This document shows, in pieces, positions 1 to 53,093 of a DNA stretch of 64,000 nt. The notes beneath the pieces are model-generated. The model searched no databases. It saw only the letters and a program-made list of their open reading frames with translations, and was not told the origin of the DNA. A program made the translations under genes and the position numbers. Source of the stretch: an uncultured Gammaproteobacteria bacterium (GTDB lineage Bacteria; Patescibacteriota; Patescibacteriia; XYB2-FULL-38-15); NCBI GenBank assembly GCA_965231095.1, contig OZ246416.1:603549-667548 (forward strand), given 5' to 3'. Every line of letters begins with the position of its first letter. Position 1 is the first letter of the stretch.

Positions 1-1888
1 TCGGCGTGACCGTTATTTCAAAATTAACTCCCAAATTTTTTACATCAAGGGGCATTCTGTTTAACGTCCAGAAAACCTCCCGCGTGGCTTCGTCAAATTT
101 TAATTCGCCGGCCGTAATTTCACTCTTATTGGACCAATTAATATTCTCCGGCAAAATTGTGCTGATTTTTAAATTTTCTACTTCGTGCAAAGAGTTCGCC
201 ACCGTCCAAAAAATCCTATAGGCGGTAGTTTTTCCCACTTCCGGCGGCAGGGGACCGTTCCCCACGGCGATATTATCATCGTTAAAATACCGCGCTTCTG
301 TTTTTAAACTCAAATCACTGTTTATTTTAAAATTTATCCCATTACTTTGAATTATTTCTTCGGGGGCGTCCGTGCCATTTTTCCCAATTTTTATTTCCGC
401 TAAACTTTTAACTTCAAAATCTTTAATGCCCCAATCCTGAAATTCCGAGAATGGTTTTAACTTCAACTGGAAATTAATTGTTCCTTCCGCGCCGGGCGCC
501 AATTTCAGAAGTCCCGGAATCTGCCTTTTTGTCCAAGTAATTGTTCCCTGCCGCACTTCGGGCATCAGCTGGGTGCCCACCACTACTCCGTTATAATCAT
601 CTTTCAGGGTGGTCCAGTCCAGCATCATTTTATTATTTCGCGAAGTTGATTCAAAAACTATTTTTATTTCAATATCGGACAAATCCGTTTTATCTTTATT
701 TTGATAAACAATCGCGTAATTTAACGTATCGCCAAAATTCAGGGCGCGATCCCTTGGATCACCGTTTAAAATAAGAGTTGAAAGAATCGCTCCGGCCAAA
801 ACATTGGTTTTAAAAGAATTCTCTTTCTGCAGATAAAATTTATCATCCTTCATAAAACCAATCTGCACCCCCAACTCCCTCTCTCCCTCCGAGCTCGCGC
901 CGAACGATCCGGAAAAATTGATTTCTTTTTCCTCGCCAGGAACTGCTTCAAGAATTTCCCAGCTCGTCACCTCTTTTTCCCCCTGTTTTTCCTTGAAAGA
1001 GAAATCCGCGGGAGCAATCACGGAAATTTTTAAACCCTGGAGCGCCTCCTCCCCCGTATTTTTATATTTTATTTTAAAAGATGTTTCTTTATTGGTTAAA
1101 ACTCTCTCCGGCCCGGAAAGGGAAATATCCAAAAGAGAATTTTGTATTTTTGTCACCGCCGTCGCCACTTTTTGAAATTCAGAATTAAAATCCGCCGGCT
1201 TATAAGTCAACACCGCTCGAAGCATTTCTATCGAATCTTCCGCTCCATAAAGCGACCCACTAATTTTTATTTCTCCCCCCTTGCCCGCGGCAATACTCCC
1301 AATCTCCCAAATATTTTCTCCGTCGGAAGGCGCGGGGTCCTCGCTGCTTCGTGCGAAATCATCCGGCAGTCTGACGTTTATCTCCGCCTGGCCCAAGGGC
1401 ACGGTCTCGTTATTTTGATATTTAATTACATATTCAATCCTCTCCCCGCCCGCGGAGGTATCGGGAGAAATTATTTCTAAATTAACATTTTCTCCGCTGA
1501 AAGCCTGGCCTCGCCCAAAAAAGAAAAAACCCGCCCAAGAAAGCGCCGCGGCGGAAACCAAAAATACGAGCACTCCCGCCATAAATCTTTTTATTTTACT
1601 TTTCTTCTTATGATAAATTTTTGACATGTCTGAAATTTTTCCGTCCTGGTCTTCGTAAATTTCCCTCAACTCTTTCTCCAACTCTTTTTTGCTTAAATGT
1701 TTTTCTCTGGGTTTGGAAAGGGCTCCGCGACGAACGCCCTCAATCATCTTTACTTCTTTTCCCGCCGGTAATTCCGCCATTTCTTTCGCCGCGCCGAGCA
1801 TTTTTATCTCCTTGCTTTTCCCGCTCACAGTTTTCCCTATCACCCGACTTTTACTTTCTTTTTTCTTTTTTTCTTTTATCTCTGCCAT
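1..1888 (-). CDS. Large membrane-anchored surface protein, 3'-partial (runs off the window start). About 100 aa of cytoplasmic, Lys-rich N-terminus, one TM helix, then repeated beta-rich Ig-like/DUF11-like modules.
   Basis: Hand translation of the minus strand from the ATG at 1888 gives MAEIKEKKKKESKSRV...MAGVLVFLVSAAALSWAGFFFF(TM)...GENVNLEIISPDTSAGGERIEYVIKYQNNETVPLGQAEINVRLP... with no stop before position 1. The ORF is absent from the supplied track because it is unterminated. Repeated 'EI..A......F.I.YKN.G' modules are present. Confidence 0.55.
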   Translation of the reverse strand, partial: MAEIKEKKKKESKSRVIGKTVSGKSKEIKMLGAAKEMAELPAGKEVKMIEGVRRGALSKPREKHLSKKELEKELREIYEDQDGKISDMSKIYHKKKSKIKRFMAGVLVFLVSAAALSWAGFFFFGRGQAFSGENVNLEIISPDTSAGGERIEYVIKYQNNETVPLGQAEINVRLPDDFARSSEDPAPSDGENIWEIGSIAAGKGGEIKISGSLYGAEDSIEMLRAVLTYKPADFNSEFQKVATAVTKIQNSLLDISLSGPERVLTNKETSFKIKYKNTGEEALQGLKISVIAPADFSFKEKQGEKEVTSWEILEAVPGEEKEINFSGSFGASSEGERELGVQIGFMKDDKFYLQKENSFKTNVLAGAILSTLILNGDPRDRALNFGDTLNYAIVYQNKDKTDLSDIEIKIVFESTSRNNKMMLDWTTLKDDYNGVVVGTQLMPEVRQGTITWTKRQIPGLLKLAPGAEGTINFQLKLKPFSEFQDWGIKDFEVKSLAEIKIGKNGTDAPEEIIQSNGINFKINSDLSLKTEARYFNDDNIAVGNGPLPPEVGKTTAYRIFWTVANSLHEVENLKISTILPENINWSNKSEITAGELKFDEATREVFWTLNRMPLDVKNLGVNFEITVTP

Positions 1889-1918
1889 ATTTAAAATTTA
1901 ATTATTTTTAAAAATTAT

Positions 1919-5619: not shown

Positions 5620-6774
5620 CTAACTGATTAATAACAAAAATTGACGCGCACAATCCTCCCAATTGAATTTTTCCGCTTGCTTTTTTCCTTTTTCAATCAA
5701 GTTCGCCCGAAAATTTTCATTGGTCAAGCATTGCTCCATGGCTTTTGCCATTTCCGCCGGGTTATTTGGATCAACCAAGAACGCCGCCTCACCCATTACT
5801 TCCGGAAGAGATGAATTCGTGCTGACAACAACCGGTGTCCCGGCTCGGGCGGCCTCAAGCGGGGGAAATCCAAATCCTTCATAAAATGAAGGGTAAACAA
5901 AAAGCCGTGCCAATTTATAAAAATATTTTTTTTCTTCCGGCGCGATGTAATCTATAAATTTTATATCATCGCGCGCCGGACTTTTTTTTGCCCGCGCCAA
6001 AATTTTTTTATAAAGCCAGCCGCGCGGACCGACAATCAATAATTTTAGATTTACGATTTCAGATTTTTGATTTCCCCTCAAAATTTCAAAAGCGCGAACT
6101 AATCCTTCAATATTTTTTCTCGGCTCAAGCGTCCCTAAAAACAAAATAAAATTATTCGGCAAATTATATTTTTTTCTAATTTTATCAATTCCCAATTCAT
6201 CATTCACGATTTCTAATTCCCGTCCCACTCCGGAATAAATAACCCCCACTTTTTCCACCGGCACACCATATAATTTGACCAAATCATTTTTAGTATTTTC
6301 CGAAACAGAAATAATTTTGTCCGCGCCGCAAATTATCTTTTGGGGATTGACAAACCAATGCCACAGTCGCCGTTTCCAGGAAAAAAATCTTGGAAAAAAT
6401 TCAAAAGATAGATCATGAACCGTGATCATTTTTTTAACTCCGCGCGATAAAGCTATAAAATTTAGATTTGGAATAAAAAATAAATCAATTTTATCTTTTA
6501 GTAATATCATCTTATCAACTTTTGGCCACTTCAAAAATTTAAAACAAAAATTCAATAACTTATTTGGCCAACGAAATCCGCAAAGACGAACATTAGAATT
6601 TTTTTTCCACTCCCCCAGAAAGTCTTCCTCAACTTTTTTCCAAGAATTATAAAAAAGGAAATAATTATTTTCTTTATCAATACAAAAAAGAGCGTCGAGA
6701 ATCTGATAAGTATATTCTCCGACGCCGCTTCTTTCTTTTTCTAAAAGCGATCTGATGTCAACGCCGATATTCAT
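5620..6774 (-). CDS. Glycosyltransferase family 4.
   Basis: 384 aa. MNIGVDIRSL..., with C-terminal EGFGFPPLEAARAGTPVVVSTNSSLPEVMGEAAFLVDP. Confidence 0.8.
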   Translation of the reverse strand: MNIGVDIRSLLEKERSGVGEYTYQILDALFCIDKENNYFLFYNSWKKVEEDFLGEWKKNSNVRLCGFRWPNKLLNFCFKFLKWPKVDKMILLKDKIDLFFIPNLNFIALSRGVKKMITVHDLSFEFFPRFFSWKRRLWHWFVNPQKIICGADKIISVSENTKNDLVKLYGVPVEKVGVIYSGVGRELEIVNDELGIDKIRKKYNLPNNFILFLGTLEPRKNIEGLVRAFEILRGNQKSEIVNLKLLIVGPRGWLYKKILARAKKSPARDDIKFIDYIAPEEKKYFYKLARLFVYPSFYEGFGFPPLEAARAGTPVVVSTNSSLPEVMGEAAFLVDPNNPAEMAKAMEQCLTNENFRANLIEKGKKQAEKFNWEDCARQFLLLIS

Positions 6775-27242: not shown

Positions 27243-27282
27243 TGGGCGTGGATGGACTCGAACCATCGACCCCGGCTTTATA
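27243..27282 (-). repeat. Exact 40-nt duplicate of the 3' half of tRNA-Ile(UAU), from the anticodon loop to the 3' end.
   Basis: 27243-27282 is identical to 27359-27398, the intact tRNA 115 bp away. It diverges exactly at the anticodon loop. Confidence 0.6.
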
Positions 27283-27358
27283 GCGGCAACCTTCATCTTA
27301 AAAAAATTTAGGTAGTTGCCGATATATCAATGACTACATTATAATCTTATTCCTCGGG

Positions 27359-27432
27359 TGGGCGTGGATGGACTCGAACCATCGACCCCGGCTTTATAAG
27401 AGCCGTGCTCTAACCGGCTGAGCTACACGCCC
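27359..27432 (-). tRNA. tRNA-Ile (anticodon UAU).
   Basis: Minus strand: GGGCGTG-TA-GCTC-AGCCGGTTA-GAGC-A-CGGCT-CTTATAA-AGCCG-GGGTC-GATGG-TTCGAGT-CCATC-CACGCCC-A. The anticodon loop reads cuUAUaa. Confidence 0.8.
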
Positions 27433-27465
27433 CCCCGAGAAATATATTCATTTTTGAAAAGTCAT

Positions 27466-27548
27466 CGCTATAAGAACCGTGCTCTAACCCGCCTCGATGA
27501 GCCGAAGCCCATCTTCGGCGAGGCGGGCCGACTCTAAGCTAGCCACCC
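27466..27548 (-). repeat. tRNA-derived 5' fragment or pseudo-tRNA. Acceptor and D-arm-like sequence interrupted by a 40-nt hairpin, ending at a cuUAUa anticodon-like loop.
   Basis: Minus strand: GGGTGGCTAGCTTAGAGTCGG-[CCCGCCTCGCCGAAGATGGGCTTCGGCTCATCGAGGCGG]-GTTAGAGCACGGTTCTTATAGCG. It is similar to the 5' half of tRNA-Ile, but no matching 3' half is present. Confidence 0.4.
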
Positions 27549-27751
27549 ACAATTTATTTAAATCATAGCGGAAAAGGGATATTTTTTCAAGCCTAAAATC
27601 CCAGGCCGACTCGGCGAGTTTTTTATTTTCAAATTACCAATTACCCTTTACCATTTACCAATTACCAATTTTTTGTAATTGACTTTTTTATCTTTTTAAA
27701 ATAAACTCATACGAGGGCTATATTCCCGAAATCATGGAAGGAGGAAGAGGG

Positions 27752-28222
27752 ATGGAAGAGGGAAAACCAAAAAAAACGTGCAGCGATGCTCCGGTTTGGT
27801 GGCACCCGAACGGAATGATGATGCGACCGATGTCGGGATACCAAGAGCACAAGCTCCAAATCTTTAGCGACAGAGCCGTTCTTACGATCAGCCCCGCCGA
27901 AGATCCCCGCGAACACAACATCTGGCTTCTCGACTGGAAAATCACCCGCATCTCGGCTTTCACTATCAGCGTCAAGCTCAAAATCCCGGAAAAAATTCTC
28001 CGCCATGCCTTCGCTCTTGATGACGGACCATACGAATCCGATGAATGGCTACTCAAACACTACGGCGCCGATGCGGCAGAGCGAGGATATTACGTCCGCG
28101 CCGGAAATTACCTGAATATTCCCGGCCCGGGCACCGGCCACGACGGAGATTCAAATATCTCCATCTTCCTGCGCCCCGATATCAAGGAGGCAGTACGCCA
28201 GCTCCTCGAGCTGCTTCGGTAA
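27752..28222 (+). CDS. Hypothetical protein, encoded in a GC-rich islet.
   Basis: 156-162 aa ORF with locally elevated GC. A strong SD (GGAAGGAGGAAGAGGG) lies 7 nt before the ATG at 27752; the alternative ATG is at 27734. It is followed by a terminator. Confidence 0.5.
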   Translation: MEEGKPKKTCSDAPVWWHPNGMMMRPMSGYQEHKLQIFSDRAVLTISPAEDPREHNIWLLDWKITRISAFTISVKLKIPEKILRHAFALDDGPYESDEWLLKHYGADAAERGYYVRAGNYLNIPGPGTGHDGDSNISIFLRPDIKEAVRQLLELLR

Positions 28223-28261
28223 ACTTTCCCGCCCGGCTGGCTTCGGCCGACTCGGACGGCT

Positions 28262-28296
28262 CCCACACTCTTCACTGAAGTGTGGGATTTTTTTTA
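28262..28296 (+). terminator. Rho-independent terminator.
   Basis: CCCACACTCTTCACTGAAGTGTGGG followed by TTTTTTTT. Confidence 0.6.
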
Positions 28297-28386
28297 ATTA
28301 CCATTTACTGATTACTAGTTACTTAAATATCTTACTCTTGACATAAAAATAAAATTATTGTTTTATTACTTTATAAGGAGGAACAA

Positions 28387-28656
28387 ATGAGCGCTCGCCA
28401 AAAAAAGAAGCAGGCGCTAAAGAGTGCCCGTCCGGAGTGGTGGGAACGTCCCACTTTTTACATTTCCTCCTCCGGCTCCTGGGAAAACGCCACGAAGAAA
28501 TCACGCGTGGAGTTGGTCCTCCCCGATGCCACGAAAGTTGATCTCGGCTATTTCTCTGCGGCGGTAAATTCCGACGAACTCCGTCGCGAGGTGGCGGAAA
28601 AATTCAGAGAAATCTGGGACCCGACAAAACGCTGCCGGCGGACACCGAAACCTTAG
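28387..28656 (+). CDS. Hypothetical 89-aa protein (GC-rich islet).
   Basis: A strong SD (TAAGGAGGAACAA) precedes the ATG. Moderately GC-rich. Followed by a terminator. Confidence 0.5.
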   Translation: MSARQKKKQALKSARPEWWERPTFYISSSGSWENATKKSRVELVLPDATKVDLGYFSAAVNSDELRREVAEKFREIWDPTKRCRRTPKP

Positions 28657-28696
28657 CCCGCGTTTGTTTTTTAAAGAAACAACGCGGGATTTTTTA
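28657..28696 (+). terminator. Rho-independent terminator.
   Basis: CCCGCGTTTGTTT...AAACAACGCGGG hairpin followed by TTTTTT. Confidence 0.55.
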
Positions 28697-29009
28697 TTTA
28701 TTTGTTTAAATTTTCTAGGCTTTTGCCGTTGAAAATTTATCTACAAATAATTAACCCCTTCACTAATTTTATTTTATGTTTTTCCGACAATTAATATTTT
28801 AAAATGAAAAAAATATTTTTTCTATTAACAATATTTTCTAAAATTAGTGAAGGGGTTCTCGATTTTCCAAATTCGCTGCGCTCACGGAAAATCGGAAGTT
28901 ATCCACATCTTTGCCCTTTTTTCCTTGTTGACAACAAAAAAGTGCTGTATAATAAAGTTATATTTAAAAAATTTTCATTTTATCTTTTCCAAGAAGGAGG
29001 TGAACCAAC

Positions 29010-31387: not shown

Positions 31388-31497
<110 letters not shown>

Positions 31498-31548
31498 TCA
31501 AGCTAAAAACGCTTGAAATTTATTTTTGTATGTTTGCACAATTCTTGT

Positions 31549-34555
<3,007 letters not shown>

Positions 34556-34916
34556 ACAAGAATTGTTAAAACATACATTTTACAATTCTCATTTACTTTT
34601 TTGGTTCTCTTTCTTATGTTGGGTATTAAGATGCTCTTTTATTCAATTGTCAACGAACAATTTTTTTCTGTTTCTCGCCTCTCGTTTTATTTAGAGACCA
34701 GAGGCGGGAGCAAAAAATAATTTTAAATTTTTGGAAAAAGGACTAAAAAACCGCTCTTTCCGAGCGGCTTGGTACGACCAAAAAATAGGTTAGCCACTCG
34801 GGAACTTATAAGTTAAAACTTGTTTTACCATATTTTGCCCAATATCAGAGAAAAATTGTCAGGTGTAACTCTGGATAAAATGTGGACAACTTCCTCCGTT
34901 TTCTTAGTACATTAGT

Positions 34917-34945: not shown

Positions 34946-35058
34946 GGGGAATTTTTTATTTTCTCTCCCTTGCGGTCTTTCGCGTTTTTGCGTAATAAAA
35001 AAGTGGGTTGCCCGAAAGCTTCCCACTTGTCCCTCCATATTTTTCTAACGGCTCGCCG

Positions 35059-35271
35059 TCAGCTCCGCAGACTCTTGAACCAGCGGGCGATTCGCCCCAA
35101 GACGACCACGGCCACGAGAGCGACCATGACTGTGAGGCCGAACCGGAGTGCGATCCAGTCCTCTGTCCCGCAGATGAGCGCGAAGACAATCGCGGCCGCT
35201 CCTCCGAGCAACGCGACGGTCAGCTCCTTGCCGAGCACCGACCGTTCCTCCCAAAACTCTTTGATCCCCAT
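35059..35271 (-). CDS. Small two-TM membrane protein (70 aa), GC-rich islet.
   Basis: MGIKEFWEERSVLGKELTVALLGGAAAIVFALICGTEDWIALRFGLTVMVALVAVVVLGRIARWFKSLRS. High GC. It is last in the minus-strand islet operon. Confidence 0.45.
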   Translation of the reverse strand: MGIKEFWEERSVLGKELTVALLGGAAAIVFALICGTEDWIALRFGLTVMVALVAVVVLGRIARWFKSLRS

Positions 35272-35287
35272 CCAATCCTCCTCCCTC

Positions 35288-35497
35288 TCAACGCAGGTTG
35301 CGCAACTCCTCGCCGCGCTTCCTCTTCTCGAGCCAGGCCAAAAAGATCGTCAACGCGAGAAGAACGAAGAACCCGATGACGAACGGAACGACGCCTGGCT
35401 GTTTGAGCTTCAACCGGTACAGCCCGATCGCGAGCGAAACGTCCGAGAGAACCGCGGAGATCGTCGCGGCGATAACGAGTCCCCAATTGGGGTTCAT
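35288..35497 (-). CDS. Small two-TM membrane protein (69 aa), GC-rich islet.
   Basis: Internal Met of track ORF 35288..35707: MNPNWGLVIAATISAVLSDVSLAIGLYRLKLKQPGVVPFVIGFFVLLALTIFLAWLEKRKRGEELRNLR. Its start overlaps the upstream stop as ATGA, indicating translational coupling. Confidence 0.45.
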   Translation of the reverse strand: MNPNWGLVIAATISAVLSDVSLAIGLYRLKLKQPGVVPFVIGFFVLLALTIFLAWLEKRKRGEELRNLR

Positions 35498-35799
35498 GTG
35501 CACGTCCTTTCCTCGCCGGCCTGCCGCCGCTTGCCATACCACACCTTGAGATCCGCGCCGTGTTCCCAGTGCTTGGCCAAAGCAACGACCGCCTGGCAGA
35601 GCTGGATGTCCGTGAGGCGAAGGTTGGTCTCGTCCTTCGTCTCCAGGGCGATGTCTCCCATCGCCTCGAATCCGCTCGCGAGCCGCGCTTCCATCCGCAA
35701 AGCCCAACGCTCGGCGAAACGGAGAATCCGCCCCCCGTAACTATCCTCGGGGTTTGCCTCGAGTACCCGCTCCCACTCTCCCTGATTTTTGACTTTCAT
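35494..35799 (-). CDS. Hypothetical 101-aa protein, GC-rich islet.
   Basis: MKVKNQGEWERVLEANPEDSYGGRILRFAERWALRMEARLASGFEAMGDIALE... No recognisable domain. It is coupled to the downstream small membrane proteins. Confidence 0.45.
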   Translation of the reverse strand: MKVKNQGEWERVLEANPEDSYGGRILRFAERWALRMEARLASGFEAMGDIALETKDETNLRLTDIQLCQAVVALAKHWEHGADLKVWYGKRRQAGEERTCT

Positions 35800-35820
35800 T
35801 TTTCTCCTCCCTCCGCCGCG

Positions 35821-36189
35821 CTAACCGCCGGCGAGCAGACGCCTGACTTCCTCCGGCAATTTTTCCTTGCCGTTGATTTCAAAAGTACAACCGGCCTCCA
35901 CCATCATGTGCCGGAATTTCCCGTCGCTCGACATAGCAATCACCGTACCGCCGAAGGTCAAACGAAGCTCGTCAATGAGCGGCAATGTGTCGGGCTTGTT
36001 GCCCGGGACACGACGCAAGCAACCATCCAGAGCAACAATCCGAACGTCGGGATGTTCCGAGAAGAGCCGCCTTGCTTCTTCGACCGTACGAGCCTGCAGA
36101 AGCGTAGCCCAACCCGCAAACTCGCGGACAAAGTACGACTGCCACGCCGAATGATCCTCTACCACGAGTACTTTTGGAAGCCCACTCAT
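35821..36189 (-). CDS. Receiver (REC/CheY)-like domain protein, atypical (ED instead of DD acidic pair).
   Basis: MSGLPKVLVVEDHSAWQ...ARTVEEARRLFSEHPDVRIVALDGCL...TVIAMSSDGK... has a receiver-like alpha/beta pattern. A strong SD (GGGGAGGAAGAAGGAGGG) precedes the ATG, and a promoter-like TTGACA/TATAAT region lies at 36243-36258. GC-rich. Confidence 0.45.
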   Translation of the reverse strand: MSGLPKVLVVEDHSAWQSYFVREFAGWATLLQARTVEEARRLFSEHPDVRIVALDGCLRRVPGNKPDTLPLIDELRLTFGGTVIAMSSDGKFRHMMVEAGCTFEINGKEKLPEEVRRLLAGG

Positions 36190-36290
36190 CCTAACCCTCC
36201 TTCTTCCTCCCCATTACAACCTGACATATTAAATTATATCAAAATTATATTTTTGTCAACCCCGTCAGCCGAAATATTTTGTATCAAAAA

Positions 36291-36319
36291 ATGCCCGGGG
36301 TGGGACTCGAAGCGCCCTG
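36291..36319 (-). repeat. tRNA-like 3' fragment (T-loop/acceptor-like ...CTTCGAGTCCCACCCCGGGCA).
   Basis: Its acceptor 3' strand CCCGGGC is exactly complementary to the 5' fragment at 36533-36553. No intact cloverleaf. Confidence 0.3.
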
Positions 36320-36401
36320 GCGCCATCCCTAGCCGTGCATTTTACGGTGTACGGGCAAAGCCCGCGATCTCTTGCAAGAACCCTCACTTCTTATTTTCTA
36401 A

Positions 36402-36485
36402 ATGGGCAGGGAGGGAGTTGAACCCTCAAGCTCTTTCGAGCACAAGCTCCTAAGGCTTGCGTGTCTGCCAGTTTCACCACCTGCC
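36402..36485 (-). tRNA. tRNA-Leu (anticodon UAG).
   Basis: Minus strand: GGGCAGG-TG-GTGAAACTGGCAGACAC-GCAAGC-CTTAGGA-GCTTG-T-GCTCGAAAGAGC-TTGAGGGTTCAACTCCCTC-CCTGCCC-A. Long variable arm; anticodon loop cuUAGga. Confidence 0.8.
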
Positions 36486-36532
36486 CAAAATGAGTAGAGT
36501 CGGGGCGCGCTTGCCCCGTCGGATGACGGGGT

Positions 36533-36553
36533 ATACCAGTTCCGCCACCCGGG
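36533..36553 (-). repeat. tRNA-Leu-like 5' fragment (GCCCGGGTGGCGGAACTGGTA).
   Basis: 21 nt matching the acceptor/D-arm of a class II Leu tRNA. Hairpins follow instead of the remaining tRNA. Confidence 0.35.
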
Positions 36554-36639
36554 CATAAATTTTATTTCGGCAAAAAATTTGCTAAAATTAAACTGTAGTA
36601 TAATCTTAATTTATTTTTAACCAAAAATCAAGGAGGGCT

Positions 36640-40508: not shown

Positions 40509-40622
40509 GCTTTGTATCCTCCCCTATAAAGAGGATAGGGCTAAAGCATAAAAAAGTCAAACAAATTATTGACATCAAAAAAAGTTGTTGCTATATTTGT
40601 AGAATAAATTTCCGGTCAGCAA

Positions 40623-40694
40623 GCGGGCGTCGTATAGTGGCTATTATGTGTCCTTGCCAAGGACAAGACGGCAGTTCGATTCTGCTCGCCCGCT
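40623..40694 (+). tRNA. tRNA-Gly (anticodon GCC).
   Basis: GCGGGCG...TGTCC-TTGCCAA-GGACA...GGCAG-TTCGATT-CTGCT-CGCCCGC-T, closely similar to canonical bacterial tRNA-Gly(GCC). Confidence 0.8.
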
Positions 40695-40864
40695 TATTGG
40701 TCGGAACTTTCATCAAGGTCTCAACGGCTTTTCTAAATTCAATTTTTTAACAAAAGCAGAAGCGAACTGGGAAGGGGTCGGGAAACGGGAGTTTCCCGAT
40801 TTGCGGAAATATTAAAACCGCAGGGTTTTAAAACGCAGTCCTGCCGAGGCAGGACGAGTAGTGA

Positions 40865-40893
40865 GATTCTCTCCGCCCGCTTATTGTTCGGAA
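40865..40893 (+). repeat. Degenerate direct repeat of the tRNA-Gly 3' end plus its downstream flank (GATTCTCTCCGCCCGCTTATTGTTCGGAA vs GATTCTGCTCGCCCGCTTATTGGTCGGAA).
   Basis: About 25/29 identity to 40677-40705, which is 170 bp upstream. This is an att-site-like scar. Confidence 0.4.
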
Positions 40894-40937
40894 ATCATTA
40901 AAGACCTTCGGGTCTTTTTTTGGTATAATAAGATAAT

Positions 40938-42880: not shown

Positions 42881-43001
42881 TTTAGAAAACTATAAATTTT
42901 ATTTTGACTCTGCCCCTCTTATGGGGTTGCTTTTTTTATTATTATCTTTTAATATATAAAGTCGCCATAAAAACATCCTCGTCAAAAGAAAGGAGGAGCC
43001 A

Positions 43002-43214
43002 ATGAGCGACTCACGAGAACTTTCGGTTGAAGAAGCTCAGGGCCCCTGCGGCGATAGTCGTCACCGTTGGCGATTCGCTAACCCTCCGCAATACCGATGG
43101 AATACGCGCCAGGTTCTTGCCGAATGTACAAATTGCCACGGCACCTACTGGGCTCAACTCTCACCCGAAAAATGGCAACGGTTTCTGATGTATCTGGGAG
43201 CAAGCAGAAAATAG
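43002..43214 (+). CDS. Hypothetical 70-aa protein with Cys/His zinc-ribbon-like spacing (GC-rich islet).
   Basis: SD AAAGGAGGAG lies 6 nt upstream. ...GPCGDSRHRW...CTNCHGTYW. High GC. Confidence 0.45.
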   Translation: MSDSRELSVEEAQGPCGDSRHRWRFANPPQYRWNTRQVLAECTNCHGTYWAQLSPEKWQRFLMYLGASRK

Positions 43215-43232
43215 GCGGCAGAGGAGGGCTGT

Positions 43233-43484
43233 ATGGAGAACGAAACGCTGACCTTTTCTGACCTCGAACCAGGACAGAACTTCGCTGTTCTGCCTGGCAA
43301 GGGATATAGTCGCCGGCGGGACGGCGACTGGCTCCGGGCGAGTAACCTCTTCTTGAGAGTCGCGAATCCGAACGGCAACGCCTTGCGAACCTGCGACAAC
43401 GAGATCTTCAAGATTCCCGACTCCGTACCCGTGATCCGAGTGAACATCAGCGGCAAAGCCGCTAGAAGAAGGAGGGGGAGATGA
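43233..43484 (+). CDS. Hypothetical 83-aa protein (GC-rich islet).
   Basis: SD GAGGAGGG lies upstream. Its stop overlaps the next start (ATGA). Confidence 0.45.
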   Translation: MENETLTFSDLEPGQNFAVLPGKGYSRRRDGDWLRASNLFLRVANPNGNALRTCDNEIFKIPDSVPVIRVNISGKAARRRRGR

Positions 43485-43963
43485 GTGCTAGTGAACCCGT
43501 GAAGCCAGAACAGACGGTCTGCGAGAAGAACGTAGACGTCCCGACTCTTCTGGTCGAACCTCTCTCGGCATCGAGTCGGCCGATCCGAGAAACTTTCGTC
43601 CAATGGTTTGGCCGGGCGAACGGCGCGGATCTCGGAGAAAGACAGTTCCGTTTCCCTGTGCCGCTACACCACGCAGACCGGCACTGGGAGGGGAATCCTC
43701 TGTTTTGGAAGGTTACTTTTCTCGGTACATTCCAAAAGTTTCCTTGGAATCCCCGGTCCAGGGAAATATACCGTGAAATCGCACCGTTTAGAGATAACCC
43801 TGACGCCGAAATCTTGGTCGCTCACCTTCGCGAACCAAGACACCCCGAAGATCCTGAACTGGACTCTTTCGGCCTCATGATCCCGATGACGACTCACCTG
43901 ACAGACTCCGCGTACGGGATCATCGCGCCACGAGAGTACCGCGACAGGACTATTTTTCCATAG
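43481..43963 (+). CDS. Hypothetical 160-aa protein (GC-rich islet).
   Basis: SD AGGAGGGGGAG lies upstream, and the gene is translationally coupled to the preceding one. No recognisable domain. Confidence 0.45.
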   Translation: MSASEPVKPEQTVCEKNVDVPTLLVEPLSASSRPIRETFVQWFGRANGADLGERQFRFPVPLHHADRHWEGNPLFWKVTFLGTFQKFPWNPRSREIYREIAPFRDNPDAEILVAHLREPRHPEDPELDSFGLMIPMTTHLTDSAYGIIAPREYRDRTIFP

Positions 43964-44084
43964 AGGAGGTTCGACAAAAAACAACAGAGCACGACCTGCG
44001 GGTACGGCTCTTTTTTATTGCTTTTTTATTCTACTTCTTCTAAGATAGCCAGATCGTTCCTTGAAAAAAGGAGGAAAGATAAAA

Positions 44085-45152
44085 ATGGATCACGAACTTG
44101 CTTCGTGCCAGAATGTCCTAGCCGATCGCGCAACGCGAGACGAAGACGCCAGACGGCGTTATCCCGAGTCCGAGGACGATGATGGTTGGCTCATGGATCC
44201 CTCGAACGTTGTCTCGCCCTATCTAATTGATGTTTCAAAGATCATGAACTGCCGGGCGCTACGGCGAGGGGGCGACAAAACCCAGGTCCGACCACTTGAG
44301 CCGAACACACACATCCGGCGGCGCCTTTCCCATTCGCTCGGCGTAGCGGGACTTGCTGTGCCGGTCGCCAAATTACTTGGTCTCCACCCCGATCTCACGC
44401 ACGCCGCGGGTCTTGGCCATGACATAGGCCACACCCCTTTCGGTCACACGGGCGAAGTCACCCTCTCTCGGCTTTCCGGAAAAAAAATCTGCCACGAAAT
44501 TCTAGGTGTCGTCATCGCTCAAAAAGTGGAACGCCGCGGCCGCGGTTTAAACCTCACACACCAGACACTTCTCTGTCTCCGGGATCACTCGCGCGGCGAC
44601 GGCCAGTTTGGCACCGAAACGTGCGAGTCGGAAGAGAGCGCCCTCGCCATGCACACCGACAAGATTGACTACTTCTGGGCCGACTATCACGACGTCTTTG
44701 AACGGGGTGATTGTTTGAACCCATCGGACTATCCCGAACTGGTCGGACTAGCCCAGTGGTTCGGCAAGGGATATCGCTCACGTACGGCAAAATGCCTTCG
44801 GGCGCTCTGTCTTGAATCAAAGGCGGCCGGCCGGATTTCTTTCGGGCTGTGCGAAGAGGCGATGCGGCTCACTCGAGTCAAGGAAATCATGTACGGAAAA
44901 ATCTACAACGTCGTGAACCGCCGGACGGAAATCATTTCCTTGATCGAGAGAGTCTATCGGGCGCTTGAGAAAATCGCACCCCACCTCGATCCCGTGTTCT
45001 TCATCGCGCTCTTGGGTGACCAAGAACTTCTTGGTCTCGCAAAAAAAGACAACCTTTCGCCTGCCGACCTTGCCGGCCTCTCGGCCACGGAGATTCTTGC
45101 GAACCTCAAGGAGACGAAGCTCGACCTCACGAACCCTGACTTGGGGTGGTGA
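44085..45152 (+). CDS. dGTPase-like deoxynucleoside triphosphate triphosphohydrolase (HD-domain phosphohydrolase).
   Basis: SD AAAGGAGGAAAG lies upstream of the ATG at 44085. HD-domain motifs: IRRRLSHSLGVAGLA (LTHSLEV-like) and HDIGHTPFGHTGE (HDxGHxPFGH). GC-rich. Confidence 0.6.
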   Translation: MDHELASCQNVLADRATRDEDARRRYPESEDDDGWLMDPSNVVSPYLIDVSKIMNCRALRRGGDKTQVRPLEPNTHIRRRLSHSLGVAGLAVPVAKLLGLHPDLTHAAGLGHDIGHTPFGHTGEVTLSRLSGKKICHEILGVVIAQKVERRGRGLNLTHQTLLCLRDHSRGDGQFGTETCESEESALAMHTDKIDYFWADYHDVFERGDCLNPSDYPELVGLAQWFGKGYRSRTAKCLRALCLESKAAGRISFGLCEEAMRLTRVKEIMYGKIYNVVNRRTEIISLIERVYRALEKIAPHLDPVFFIALLGDQELLGLAKKDNLSPADLAGLSATEILANLKETKLDLTNPDLGW

Positions 45153-45243
45153 GTAGCCTTGGTCCATAACCGTCCCAGGAGAAATGGGGCGGTTTTTTTA
45201 TTGCCAAAAAGGGAGAAATAAGATAAAATTGGAGAATAAAAAT

Positions 45244-52013: not shown

Positions 52014-52769
52014 ATGGAAACCAAGCTGATGGCGATCGTAATCGCCCTTTTCGTGGCGAGCTGCGGACTGGACACCGAAGGCCTGGGCGAACCCGACGAA
52101 GGGACTCTGCCCGAAGCGTCCGACGATACGGAGCCCGACATCGGCCCGGACGAAATCGTGGCCGACGTTCCCGGAGAAGACGCGGCCGAGGAAGACAGCG
52201 GGCATGACGAAGCGACGCCCGAAGAGACGACTGAAGACACCGTTGACTCCACCGAAGATGCTGAGCCGGAAGACGCGGACGACGCCGAAGACGTAGTCGA
52301 CGACGCGGCCGACGAAGGCAGCGAAGCTGACGCGGAAGACGCAGGAACCGAAGATGGCGATGCCGAAGACGGAGCAATCGATCCCTGCGCTCTGCCGGAA
52401 ATTCCGACAACAGGAATCTTCATCTTCTACTGCTTTGACTACGATCTCCTCTCCCCATTCGCGCTGGAATTTCAAATCGAACAAGGGGGCCTTCCGGTTG
52501 TCAGCTGGCGAGGATCGCCCGAGTGCACGTTCACCTCTCGCTCTCGCCGATTCGAATGCACTCTCACCCCGCTCGTCTGGGATGCGACCTACGTCTGGAA
52601 CATCCGGCTTGACCCTGGGGTCGGGATCGGTTGGTCGTGCGGACCAGAACTCCTTGAGATCTGGGGCACGCCACGAGCCTGGCTCAATGGAGTCGAACTG
52701 GCCGTCGACCCGGTGACAAACGGCGACGGCGGCTGCAACCACAGCTTCACGACGCCACCTCCTCCCTAA
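52014..52769 (+). CDS. Acidic putative lipoprotein (GC-rich islet).
   Basis: SD GGAAGGAGGGG lies upstream. Signal peptide with lipobox-like VASC. The Asp/Glu-rich N-terminal half and a Cys-containing C-terminal domain follow. High GC. Confidence 0.5.
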   Translation: METKLMAIVIALFVASCGLDTEGLGEPDEGTLPEASDDTEPDIGPDEIVADVPGEDAAEEDSGHDEATPEETTEDTVDSTEDAEPEDADDAEDVVDDAADEGSEADAEDAGTEDGDAEDGAIDPCALPEIPTTGIFIFYCFDYDLLSPFALEFQIEQGGLPVVSWRGSPECTFTSRSRRFECTLTPLVWDATYVWNIRLDPGVGIGWSCGPELLEIWGTPRAWLNGVELAVDPVTNGDGGCNHSFTTPPPP

Positions 52770-52824
52770 CTGGGAAACGGGCGCCCGAGTTAATCACTCC
52801 GGCGCCCAATTTTTTACTAAAAAC

Positions 52825-52853
52825 TGGACAAAATCAGCGAAACGTGCTATAAT
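52825..52853 (+). promoter_or_regulatory. Sigma70-like promoter (TGGACA-17-TATAAT).
   Basis: TGGACA (52825-52830), a 17-nt spacer, then TATAAT (52848-52853). It may drive tRNA-Ser about 240 nt downstream, or a small RNA. Confidence 0.4.
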
Positions 52854-53093
52854 ATAATAATGTAAAAGAAAAATCGGCTTTTTTATTTTTGTCTGCTGAA
52901 ATTATAAAGTAAACAAATTAAAAAAGAGGGGGATCTTTTGCTAAATTCGTTCTTTTTTAAAATTTGCCCGCCGTCCAGGCGGGGTAAAAATCAAAACAAA
53001 AACAAAAATAAGGAGCCGTCGCGCTCTTTATTTTATTTTTCCTTTATTTTATTATAAAAAAATGTTAAATTAATATCATAACTTGCTCAGAGC

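What the first reader, a model, noticed from the sequence alone, without database searches (positions are those of the whole stretch)
27243..27548. Intact tRNA genes each flanked by tRNA-derived fragments (3'-half duplicate downstream, 5'-like fragment upstream): footprints of repeated integration and excision
Three loci show the pattern.

(1) tRNA-Ile(UAU) at 27359-27432. An exact 40-nt copy of its 3' half sits at 27243-27282, beginning precisely at the anticodon loop. Upstream, a pseudo-5'-half (27466-27548) carries a 40-nt hairpin inserted in the D-loop.

(2) tRNA-Leu(UAG) at 36402-36485. It lies between a 21-nt Leu-like 5' fragment (36533-36553) and a 3' fragment (36291-36319). The acceptor strands of the two fragments are exactly complementary to each other (GCCCGGG/CCCGGGC), as if a Leu-like tRNA gene had been split by insertion.

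(3) tRNA-Gly(GCC) at 40623-40694. A degenerate copy of its last about 18 nt plus downstream flank lies at 40865-40893.

In loci (1) and (2) the spacing between the intact gene and the 3' copy is only 75-82 bp. Partial 3' tRNA duplications are the attL/attR scars left by tyrosine-integrase elements. Here the intervening cargo is tiny or absent, and the neighbouring GC-rich islets lie just outside the repeats. This suggests serial acquisition and loss at these sites, or a previously undescribed miniature tRNA-targeting element.
Basis: seen in the sequence. Interest (0 to 1): 0.55.

Follow-up and report, generated by a model that had tools for sequence, protein, structure and literature searches.

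The report
Broken tRNA relics around replacement tRNAs
In this small Patescibacteria genome, three tRNA genes sit inside or beside broken remains of an older copy of themselves, and relatives that carry a small nuclease gene at the same kind of break suggest these are fossils of selfish insertions that bring their own replacement tRNA.

Summary

- **tRNA-Ile(UAU).** It lies inside the anticodon loop of an older tRNA-Ile, whose halves survive on either side.
- **tRNA-Leu(UAG).** It lies inside the resident, orthologous tRNA-Leu(UAG). Two relatives still have that resident gene intact.
- **tRNA-Gly(GCC).** It is followed by a roughly 190-nt insert that ends in a second copy of the tRNA's 3' end and flank.

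Close relatives show empty sites, partial states and full states. The relics are therefore gained and lost.

The textbook reading, tyrosine-integrase attL/attR scars, fits poorly:
- I found no integrase.
- 5' relics are present.
- The inner Leu gene must have arrived whole, because its acceptor strands do not pair with the resident's.
- The GC-rich islets lie outside the repeats.

Relatives instead show: native promoter, then a 5' tRNA-Leu relic with a GC hairpin, then an 83-aa GIY-YIG nuclease gene, then an intact tRNA. That break is at the same D-loop position as in the window's Leu relic. The hairpin ends (CCCGCCTCG/TCGAGGCGGG) match the hairpin in the window's Ile relic.

Best reading: these are ORF-less fossils of homing-endonuclease-type insertions that rescue the gene they break. 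The window has no such nuclease gene, so this rests on analogy. The link is weakest for Gly.

The parts
27562..27590 (-). Native sigma-70-like promoter of the tRNA-Ile unit (TTGAAA, 17 nt, TATGAT). It drives the relic and the inner tRNA as one transcript.
   Evidence: Read from the sequence. The same promoter precedes the simple tRNA-Ile in L004 and L024 and the relic in L002 (alignment A2).
27469..27548 (-). Outer 5' relic of tRNA-Ile (positions 1-37), ending at anticodon-loop CTTATA. Its acceptor strand GGGTGGC pairs only 5 of 7 with the 3' strand.
   Evidence: Orthologous relics occur in L001, L002 and L036.
27488..27527 (-). 40-nt GC-rich hairpin inserted in the D loop of the 5' relic, with ends CCCGCCTCG / TCGAGGCGGG.
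   Evidence: Folds at -16.5 kcal/mol, z = -5.3. The motif occurs once in the window against 0.00 expected. The same ends occur in relic hairpins upstream of GIY-YIG genes in L039-L047.
27433..27468 (-). X1: 36-nt spacer between the 5' relic and the inner tRNA. Its last 12 nt pair with the trailer of the inner tRNA.
   Evidence: Homologous in L001, L036 and L002. Leader/trailer helix: 94% of cells paired, 3 pairs changed on both sides, n = 3.
27357..27432 (-). Intact inner tRNA-Ile(UAU), the functional gene.
   Evidence: ARAGORN. Rfam tRNA 72.8 bits.
27283..27358 (-). X2: 76-nt spacer. It holds the trailer, a 12-mer (27323-27334) inverted relative to the start of X1 (27461-27472), and a 12-bp hairpin (arms 27315-27326 and 27279-27290).
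   Evidence: Four of the five window matches to TATAKCGRYRAC lie in this locus. Conserved in L001.
27243..27282 (-). Outer 3' relic of tRNA-Ile: an exact 40-nt copy of positions 35-74, beginning at anticodon TAT.
   Evidence: L001 has the same relic with a 30-nt insert in its T loop. It is absent in L002 and L036.
36531..36554 (-). Outer 5' relic of the resident tRNA-Leu(UAG): acceptor strand plus D arm, up to GGTATAC.
   Evidence: It is 21/23 identical to the intact ortholog in L016 and contiguous with the orthologous upstream flank.
36488..36530 (-). Spacer between the Leu 5' relic and the inner tRNA. It holds hairpin CCCCGTCATCCGACGGGG (36514-36531, sharing base 36531 with the 5' relic), then CGCGCC, which may continue the relic.
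   Evidence: The parse after GGTATAC is ambiguous.
36402..36487 (-). Intact inner tRNA-Leu(UAG), a diverged allele (acceptor GGGCAGG/CCTGCCC) about 80% identical to the orthologs.
36292..36392 (-). Outer 3' relic of the resident tRNA-Leu(UAG). It holds a possible anticodon-loop remnant, the variable arm and T stem (36361-36382), a 49-nt insert (36312-36360), then the T loop, T stem and acceptor 3' strand (36292-36311).
   Evidence: The pieces are 19/22 and 18/20 identical to L016.
40622..40695 (+). Intact tRNA-Gly(GCC). Its promoter lies at 40569-40597.
40707..40864 (+). Insert between tRNA-Gly and its native terminator. It holds a decayed terminator-like hairpin and three conserved hairpins, one of them CCTGCCGAGGCAGG at 40840-40853.
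   Evidence: Present in the window, L012, L013 and L015. Absent in L011, L014 and L016. Consensus fold; fold z = -3.9.
40865..40893 (+). Second copy of the tRNA-Gly 3' end (from T-loop GATTC) plus 12 nt of flank. It is followed by the native terminator at 40900-40917.

Best explanation
**What the three loci are.** They are fossils of insertions into, or next to, single-copy tRNA genes. Each insertion survived because it brought, or created, a working copy of the gene it broke.

**How they are expressed.** The resident gene remains as 5' and 3' relics. At the Ile and Leu(UAG) loci the new copy lies downstream of the resident promoter and the 5' relic. No separate promoter is evident in the short spacer. 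It is therefore presumably transcribed from the resident promoter and cut out by the normal tRNA-processing enzymes.

**What happens afterwards.**
- The relics decay. They show acceptor mismatches, GC hairpins in the D and T loops, and mutated D arms.
- The relics are removed by recombination between the direct repeats. This gives the empty, partial and full states seen in relatives.

**Most likely agent.** A small free-standing GIY-YIG nuclease element of the homing-endonuclease kind. Relatives still carry such a gene between a hairpin-bearing 5' relic and the intact tRNA. In the window the nuclease gene has been lost, and only the spacers, hairpins and relics remain.

**Shown.** Nesting, orthologous empty sites, polymorphism among relatives, decay of the relics, and the nuclease-bearing architecture in relatives.

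**Inferred.** That the window's loci descend from such nuclease elements, and that the nuclease cuts tRNA genes.
For: **Nested layout at Ile and its relatives.**
- Empty sites with the same promoter occur in L004 and L024/L025.
- L002 and L036 have the 5' relic only.
- On the neighbouring-gene tree, the window and L001 are sisters and share both relics. L024 (simple) is 96.8% identical in protein to L002 (relic), so relics are lost by deletion.

**Leu(UAG).**
- The outer relic equals the intact ortholog of L015/L016 (about 89% identity). The inner gene is only about 80% identical.
- Hybrid acceptor stems between inner and outer would have 2-3 mismatches (read from the sequence). The inner gene therefore came in whole.

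**Gly.**
- The insert is present or absent among relatives.
- A 330-nt block (promoter, tRNA and insert) is about 99% identical between the window and L013. The adjacent PolX gene is about 85% identical over the stretch aligned.

**GIY-YIG link.**
- L022, L049 and L039-L048 show: 5' relic of tRNA-Leu with a hairpin, then an 83-aa GIY-YIG ORF, then an intact tRNA.
- All three family members I looked up have this layout.
- The break after GGTATA in the D loop is the same as in the window's Leu relic.
- The hairpin ends CCCGCCTCG/TCGAGGCGGG are the same in L039 and the window's Ile relic. Among the first 49 loci fetched the motif occurs only in such relics.
- All 3 CCYGCC...GGCRGG hairpins in the window lie 56-145 nt from a tRNA.

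**Published analogues.**
- SegB, a GIY-YIG homing endonuclease in the T-even phage tRNA cluster, cuts inside tRNA genes and drives tandem amplification (PMC13096335).
- CPR rRNA genes hold GIY-YIG-encoding non-intron insertions and many short ORF-less inserts at loops (PMC11270868).
Against: - No GIY-YIG gene of this family lies in the 64-kb window or next to the Ile or Gly loci of any relative.
- The spacers are too short to show ORF remnants.
- At Ile, the hairpin is in the window's relic only, not in those of L001, L002 or L036. It may be a separate, later insertion.
- The break points differ between loci: anticodon loop for Ile, D loop or anticodon stem for Leu, T loop for Gly. One nuclease would not explain all three.
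- The nuclease's target and activity are untested. Small GIY-YIG proteins without a DNA-binding domain are not proven homing enzymes.
- The Ile 3' relic stays identical to the inner gene in both the window and L001. This needs gene conversion or selection, which the model does not predict by itself.
Confidence: 0.5

Rival explanations
1. Classical tDNA island scars. Tyrosine-integrase elements integrated at the anticodon loop (Ile) and T loop (Gly). They restored the gene with their own copy of the 3' part and left the displaced host 3' fragment. The islands were later deleted almost completely.
For: - The exact 40-nt 3' repeat starts in the anticodon loop, and the Gly repeat starts in the T loop. 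Both are classical crossover sublocations (Islander model, PMC4383910).
- tRNA genes here are hot spots for variable, GC-rich, partly phage-like DNA. Examples are a Tad4-like ORF and the mosaic islet after tRNA-Leu(UAA).
- A 129-kb viral contig carries a nearly identical tRNA-Ile(UAU).
Against: - No scanned ORF in the window or in the extra DNA of relatives matched an integrase family.
- The 5' relics and the nesting are not produced by this mechanism.
- The Leu inner gene cannot arise by half-replacement.
- The islets lie outside the repeats.
- It needs near-total deletion of several islands, each stopping just short of the repeats.
Confidence: 0.15
2. Purely local rearrangement. Partial tandem duplications of the tRNA gene arose by replication slippage or template switching at hairpin-forming sequences (the anticodon stem-loop and the palindromic TATA). 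One copy then decayed. No mobile element is involved.
For: - At Ile, the inner and outer copies are near-identical alleles.
- The trailer of the inner gene shares TAAGATTATA with the native 3' flank of L024.
- TATA is repeated at the junctions.
- The locus is full of quasi-palindromes: four related 12-mers and a leader/trailer inverted repeat.
- L002's spacer resembles its own promoter (p = 0.009).
Against: - Spacer-to-promoter similarity is not significant in the other genomes.
- The Leu inner gene is about 80% identical to the resident one, so it is not a local copy.
- It does not explain the shared hairpin ends across loci and genomes, or the nuclease gene at the same break in relatives.
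Confidence: 0.2
3. The arrangement works at the RNA level. The outer halves and spacers would form an intron-like or processing scaffold around the inner tRNA. The Gly insert would be a tRNA-derived structured RNA kept by selection.
For: - The leader/trailer helix around the inner tRNA-Ile is kept through three double changes.
- The leader, tRNA and trailer show 93% column identity, against 65% at third codon positions of the next gene.
- The Ile 3' relic co-varies with the inner gene's acceptor allele in the window and L001.
- The Gly insert folds well and has some compensatory changes.
Against: - The outer copies are visibly damaged: 5 of 7 acceptor pairs and a 40-nt D-loop insert in the window, a 30-nt T-loop insert in L001, and a mutated anticodon and D arm in L036 and L002.
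- The 3' relic is missing in L002 and L036, and everything is missing in L024.
- No bulge-helix-bulge motif can be drawn by hand, and there is no group I intron.
- Only three or four sequences are available per alignment.
- Near-identity of the Gly block extends over an AT-rich spacer, which points to recent exchange rather than constraint.
Confidence: 0.1

Closest known systems
Genomic islands in tRNA genes (tyrosine-integrase tDNA islands, as mapped by Islander; PMC4383910)
   Same: An insertion splits a tRNA gene. A copy carried by the insert restores the gene. A displaced fragment remains as a direct repeat. The anticodon loop and T loop are the break points.
   Different: No integrase was found, and the insert is tens to about 190 nt. 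The 5' fragments and a whole-gene nested copy do not occur in the island model. The variable GC-rich DNA lies outside the repeats.
SegB, a free-standing GIY-YIG homing endonuclease in the tRNA gene cluster of T-even phages (PMC13096335; review PMC2988022)
   Same: A GIY-YIG nuclease gene sits among tRNA genes. It cuts inside tRNA genes. Repair gives unstable tandem duplications of tRNA-containing segments joined at microhomology with the tRNA 5' end.
   Different: SegB is a phage protein of more than 200 aa with a DNA-binding part, and it lies between intact tRNA genes. Here the gene is 83 aa (catalytic domain only), chromosomal, and lies between a 5' relic and an intact copy of one tRNA. In the window it is absent.
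Insertion sequences in CPR rRNA genes (PMC11270868)
   Same: Stable-RNA genes of the same phylum carry GIY-YIG-encoding insertions that are not introns. They also carry many short ORF-less inserts at the tops or bases of stem-loops.
   Different: Those are in rRNA and leave one gene copy. Here the target is a tRNA, and function is kept by a second copy of all or part of the gene.
Group I introns in the anticodon loop of Patescibacteria tRNA genes (PMC13011429)
   Same: Same phylum, and at Ile the same insertion place (the anticodon loop).
   Different: Rfam finds no ribozyme. The insert is 186 nt and consists mostly of a complete tRNA. The outer exons are damaged.

Membership tests
Tyrosine-integrase tDNA island (attL/attR scar) | Direct repeat made of the 3' part of the tRNA, starting at a classical crossover site | tested here: met
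   Ile: an exact 40 nt starting at the anticodon. Gly: 26/29 starting in the T loop.
Tyrosine-integrase tDNA island (attL/attR scar) | Integrase gene in or next to the element | tested here: not met
   Pfam scans of 19 window ORFs and 5 ORFs in relatives' extra DNA gave no integrase match. The rest of the 886-kb genome was not available.
Tyrosine-integrase tDNA island (attL/attR scar) | Foreign cargo lies between the intact tRNA and the displaced fragment | tested here: not met
   Only 76 nt (Ile) and about 158 nt (Gly) lie between the repeats. The GC-rich islets lie outside them.
Tyrosine-integrase tDNA island (attL/attR scar) | Only one end of the gene is duplicated, and the restored gene is a host/element hybrid | tested here: not met
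   Ile and Leu have both 5' and 3' relics. The Leu inner gene is incompatible with the resident halves.
Free-standing GIY-YIG homing-endonuclease element | GIY-YIG ORF inside the insertion | tested here: not met
   Absent from the window. Present at the equivalent place in relatives L022, L049 and L039-L048.
Free-standing GIY-YIG homing-endonuclease element | Presence/absence polymorphism at a fixed site in a conserved gene | tested here: met
   tRNA-Leu(UAA) is simple in the window, L011, L013 and L021, and occupied in L022 and L049. The Ile and Gly loci are likewise polymorphic.
Free-standing GIY-YIG homing-endonuclease element | The nuclease cuts the empty allele, and the element spreads by repair | not testable with these tools
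   Needs protein and cleavage assays or crosses.
Group I intron in a tRNA gene | Ribozyme core detectable by covariance model | tested here: not met
   No intron family hit in the window or in L001, L022, L036, L039 or L049.
Archaeal-type split or intron-containing tRNA (bulge-helix-bulge) | Two 3-nt bulges separated by a 4-bp helix at the exon/insert junctions | tested here: not met
   Drawn by hand from the sequence for the 37/38 junction and for the L001 T-loop insert. The required 4-bp helix does not form.
Multicopy miniature inverted-repeat element | Several copies of the same element in the genome | tested here: not met
   The spacers and hairpin interiors are unique in the window and in about 400 kb of relatives. 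Only the hairpin ends recur.

The most novel reading that the evidence does not exclude
Patescibacteria harbour a family of very small selfish elements that live inside tRNA transcription units. Each consists of a GC hairpin with conserved ends, an 83-aa GIY-YIG nuclease gene, and a replacement copy of part or all of the target tRNA. The element breaks the resident gene, uses its promoter, and supplies the tRNA again. When the nuclease gene decays, a tRNA nested inside its own pseudogene is left. The window holds three such fossils.
Probability: 0.35. Interest if true: 0.7.

Novelty: new variant of a known kind. Interest (0 to 1): 0.55.

Why it matters
Genomes this small appear to carry each tRNA as a single gene, so any insertion into one should be lethal. 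These loci show one way round that: the insertion carries its own copy of the gene.

If the nuclease link holds, it would have three consequences:
- It would extend homing-endonuclease biology from phage tRNA clusters and rRNA or intron sites to chromosomal tRNA genes.
- It would explain how tRNA alleles are replaced in place by foreign ones.
- It would explain some odd tRNA calls and contig breaks in Patescibacteria assemblies.

Practically, tRNA halves and hairpin-bearing relics next to intact tRNAs should be annotated as pseudogene fragments, not as split or intron-containing tRNAs.

Tried and rejected
- **Rfam on the fragments.** Permissive-threshold scans report only the intact tRNAs. Half molecules are invisible to the model, so this test is uninformative.
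- **ARAGORN intron mode.** It pairs the repeated halves, but it also gives many false calls. I did not use it as evidence.
- **Exact-product look-up for the window's CCA-enzyme gene.** Nothing on record.
- **Spacer versus native promoter.** Not significant, except for L002.
- **Spacers or hairpin interiors as a multicopy element.** They are unique.
- **Integrases.** No integrase match. The 3-kb extra DNA at the Gly site in L012 and L016 encodes a sortase and a surface protein.
- **Viral contigs.**
  - No hit for the Ile junction, the inner Leu tRNA or the Gly insert.
  - No close relatives of two islet proteins.
  - The hairpin-end pattern gave more than 120 hits, mostly in GC-rich phage DNA with no tRNA-like flanks. 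These are consistent with chance.
  - A 25-nt match to the inner Leu 3' end lies in an unrelated GC-rich giant phage.
- **Bulge-helix-bulge motifs at the junctions.** Drawn by hand, they do not form.
- **Weak tblastn hit of the GIY-YIG protein to the minus strand of the Gly insert (E = 0.45).** Not significant, and on the wrong strand.

Full report
**Context.** The window comes from a Patescibacteria (CPR) genome. The closest relatives of its genes are Patescibacteria metagenome-assembled genomes. The window's own CCA-enzyme-like protein is on record on an 886-kb contig. ARAGORN and Rfam find six tRNA genes, a 23S-5S pair and RNase P RNA.

**Locus 1, tRNA-Ile(UAU).** On the minus strand the order is:
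- a promoter (TTGAAA, 17 nt, TATGAT; 27562-27590);
- a tRNA-Ile 5' half (27548 down to 27469) that ends in anticodon-loop CTTATA and carries a 40-nt hairpin in its D loop (27488-27527);
- a 36-nt spacer, X1;
- the intact tRNA (27432-27357);
- a 76-nt spacer, X2;
- an exact 40-nt copy of tRNA positions 35-74 (27282-27243);
- a diverged copy of the 3' flank.

The intact gene therefore sits inside the anticodon loop of a second tRNA-Ile. TATA is present at both junctions.

The outer copy is damaged. Its acceptor strand GGGTGGC pairs at only 5 of 7 positions with CACGCCC.

**Relatives at locus 1.** I found relatives through the neighbouring CCA-enzyme-like gene. They show every intermediate state.

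| State | Loci |
|---|---|
| Simple tRNA-Ile behind the same promoter | L004, L024/L025 |
| Full nested layout with homologous X1 and X2 | L001 |
| 5' relic, X1 and the intact gene only | L002, L036 |

- In L001 the D loop of the relic is normal. A 30-nt insert sits in the T loop of its 3' relic.
- In L002 and L036 the relics have degenerate D arms. In L036 the relic anticodon is mutated.
- On a tree of the neighbouring protein, the window and L001 are sisters. L024 (simple) is 96.8% identical to L002 (relic).
- The relics were therefore gained in an ancestor and are lost by deletion between the direct repeats (inference).

**Features of locus 1 that remain unexplained.**
- Third codon positions of the neighbouring gene are about 65% identical between these genomes. 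The leader, inner tRNA and trailer are 93% identical.
- The 12-bp leader/trailer helix keeps pairing through three double changes. This rests on three sequences only, and 33 of 500 shuffles do as well.
- In both the window and L001 the 3' relic matches that genome's own inner-gene allele. This points to gene conversion or constraint.
- Four related 12-mers (TATAKCGRYRAC) sit at the junctions and in X2. They make the insert a double hairpin.

**Locus 2, tRNA-Leu(UAG).**
- L015 and L016 have an intact tRNA-Leu(UAG) with acceptor GCCCGGG behind the same upstream flank.
- In the window the 5' relic runs to GGTATAC in the D loop (36554-36531).
- The variable arm and 5' T-stem strand survive at 36361-36382.
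- A 49-nt insert separates them from the T loop, the 3' T-stem strand and the acceptor strand (36292-36311).
- These pieces are about 89% identical to L016. The inner tRNA is only about 80% identical.

Reading the sequences, a hybrid of the inner 5' strand GGGCAGG with the resident 3' strand CCCGGGC has three mismatches. The reverse hybrid has two. The inner gene must therefore have arrived complete, in one step. That excludes assembly by two integrase-type half-replacements.

**Locus 3, tRNA-Gly(GCC).**
- The repeat runs from T-loop GATTC through the acceptor strand and 12 nt of flank (40678-40706 and 40865-40893).
- It brackets an insert that lies between the tRNA and its native terminator.
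- The insert is present in the window, L012, L013 and L015. It is absent in L011, L014 and L016, where the terminator or other DNA follows the tRNA flank directly.
- The insert folds into three conserved hairpins closed by a long-range helix.
- Between the window and L013, a 330-nt block (promoter, tRNA and insert; 40558-40888) is about 99% identical. The adjacent PolX gene is about 85% identical over the stretch aligned, and upstream there is no similarity.
- This looks like recent exchange of the block, because an AT-rich spacer inside it is also identical.
- Its 5' part may be a decayed tRNA-Gly. In L015 it begins GCGAGCG. This is weak.

**Against the integrase reading.**
- Pfam scans of 19 window ORFs, including those in the GC-rich islets, gave no integrase match.
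- The extra 3 kb at the Gly site in L012 and L016 encodes a sortase and a surface protein.
- The islets next to the Ile, Leu(UAG), Leu(UAA) and Ser tRNAs are variable among relatives. One carries a Tad4-like gene. They lie outside the repeats.
- Only 3 of the 6 tRNAs have fragments.

**The lead from relatives.** I screened all 44 tRNAs in the sequences I held for nearby fragments. This flagged tRNA-Leu(UAA) in L022, a close relative from the same sample as L012.
- **L022.** The native upstream region is followed by tRNA positions 1-22 with a GC hairpin after G10. Next comes an 83-aa ORF with a GIY-YIG catalytic domain (E = 5.5e-16), then AAAACAC and the intact tRNA.
- **L049.** A homolog 89% identical sits in the same layout with a longer hairpin.
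- **L039-L048.** A homolog 58% identical sits in the same layout at a tRNA-Leu(UAG). Its relic has a different acceptor allele from the intact gene.
- No ribozyme is present.

Two details tie this to the window:
- **Break point.** It lies after GGTATA in the D loop, as in the window's Leu relic.
- **Hairpin ends.** In L039 they are CCCGCCTCG and TCGAGGCGGG, identical to the ends of the hairpin in the window's Ile relic. That motif occurs once in the window against 0.00 expected. Among the first 49 loci fetched it occurs only in these relics.

All three CCYGCC...GGCRGG hairpins in the window lie 56-145 nt from a tRNA. About 3.6% of the window lies that close to a tRNA, so chance is roughly 5e-5 by my estimate.

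No GIY-YIG gene of this family is in the window.

**Interpretation.** The loci are best read as ORF-less fossils of small nuclease-type insertions into tRNA genes that carry a replacement copy.

Published analogues:
- SegB, a GIY-YIG homing endonuclease in the T-even phage tRNA cluster. It cuts inside tRNA genes at a T-loop motif and drives unstable tandem amplification (PMC13096335).
- The GIY-YIG-encoding non-intron insertions and short ORF-less inserts in CPR rRNA genes (PMC11270868).

A 129-kb viral contig from the same sample as L014 and L016 carries a tRNA array. It includes a tRNA-Ile(UAU) almost identical to the host alleles. Foreign copies of these tRNAs therefore circulate.

The link to the nuclease is by analogy. 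It is good for locus 2, moderate for locus 1 and weak for locus 3. Local template switching at the many quasi-palindromes remains a serious rival for the Ile locus.

**Verdict.**
- The integration-scar idea is partly right. These are insertions into tRNA genes, with empty sites in relatives and tiny cargo.
- The tyrosine-integrase mechanism is not supported.
- The arrangement is a new variant of known tRNA-targeting selfish DNA.

Noticed in passing
L003, L023, L026-L028, L030-L035 (immediately upstream of the CCA-enzyme gene): Many relatives have Archease and RtcB (an RNA ligase pair) directly upstream of the CCA-adding enzyme gene. The window has the tRNA-Ile locus at that place. This would be a possible tRNA repair operon.
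   Followed up: no
window 35494-35799 (-), inside the GC-rich islet 34970-36200: This ORF matches Pfam Tad4 (type I Thoeris inhibitor, E = 9e-19). The islet next to tRNA-Leu(UAG) is therefore probably phage-derived. Other GC-rich islets lie at 27600-28900, 42900-45190 and 52014-52990, each beside a tRNA.
   Followed up: partly
L037 312-6235 (IMGVR_UViG_3300029288_007050, 129 kb): This viral contig has eight tRNA genes in 6 kb. One is a tRNA-Ile(UAU) that differs from the host alleles by 3-4 nt. Directly after it lies a tRNA-like sequence (about 6237-6290) without a normal anticodon arm.
   Followed up: partly
L014 2160-2285, L015 9875-10000, L016 9875-10000; L011 740-855: A roughly 110-nt insert with long terminal inverted repeats (CCCCGTTAGAAGTC ... 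GACTTCTAACGGGG) lies between the PolX promoter and its start codon in three relatives. L011 has a different hairpin-rich insert at the same place.
   Followed up: no
window 52967-52983: Hairpin CCCGCCGTCCAGGCGGG lies 110 nt upstream of tRNA-Ser(CGA), at the edge of a GC-rich islet. It is of the same CCYGCC...GGCRGG kind as the hairpins in the Ile relic and the Gly insert. No tRNA-Ser fragment is visible next to it.
   Followed up: partly
L002 5807-5832 and L036 1760-1797: In the D arm of the 5' relic, AGAGCTCG (L002) or AGATCTCG (L036) replaces TCAGTCGG. This may be a scar left by deletion of a hairpin like the one in the window.
   Followed up: no
L038 about 1775-1905 (-) (IMGVR_UViG_3300029893_000001, 392 kb): A GC-rich giant-phage contig has a roughly 130-nt sequence that starts GGGCAG, ends CCTGCCCA and contains three T-arm-like hairpins. 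ARAGORN calls no tRNA there.
   Followed up: no
window 31388-34557 (-): 23S and 5S rRNA genes lie here with no 16S gene anywhere in the window. The space upstream of the 23S gene is taken by a GC-rich islet and the tRNA-Leu(UAG) locus.
   Followed up: no
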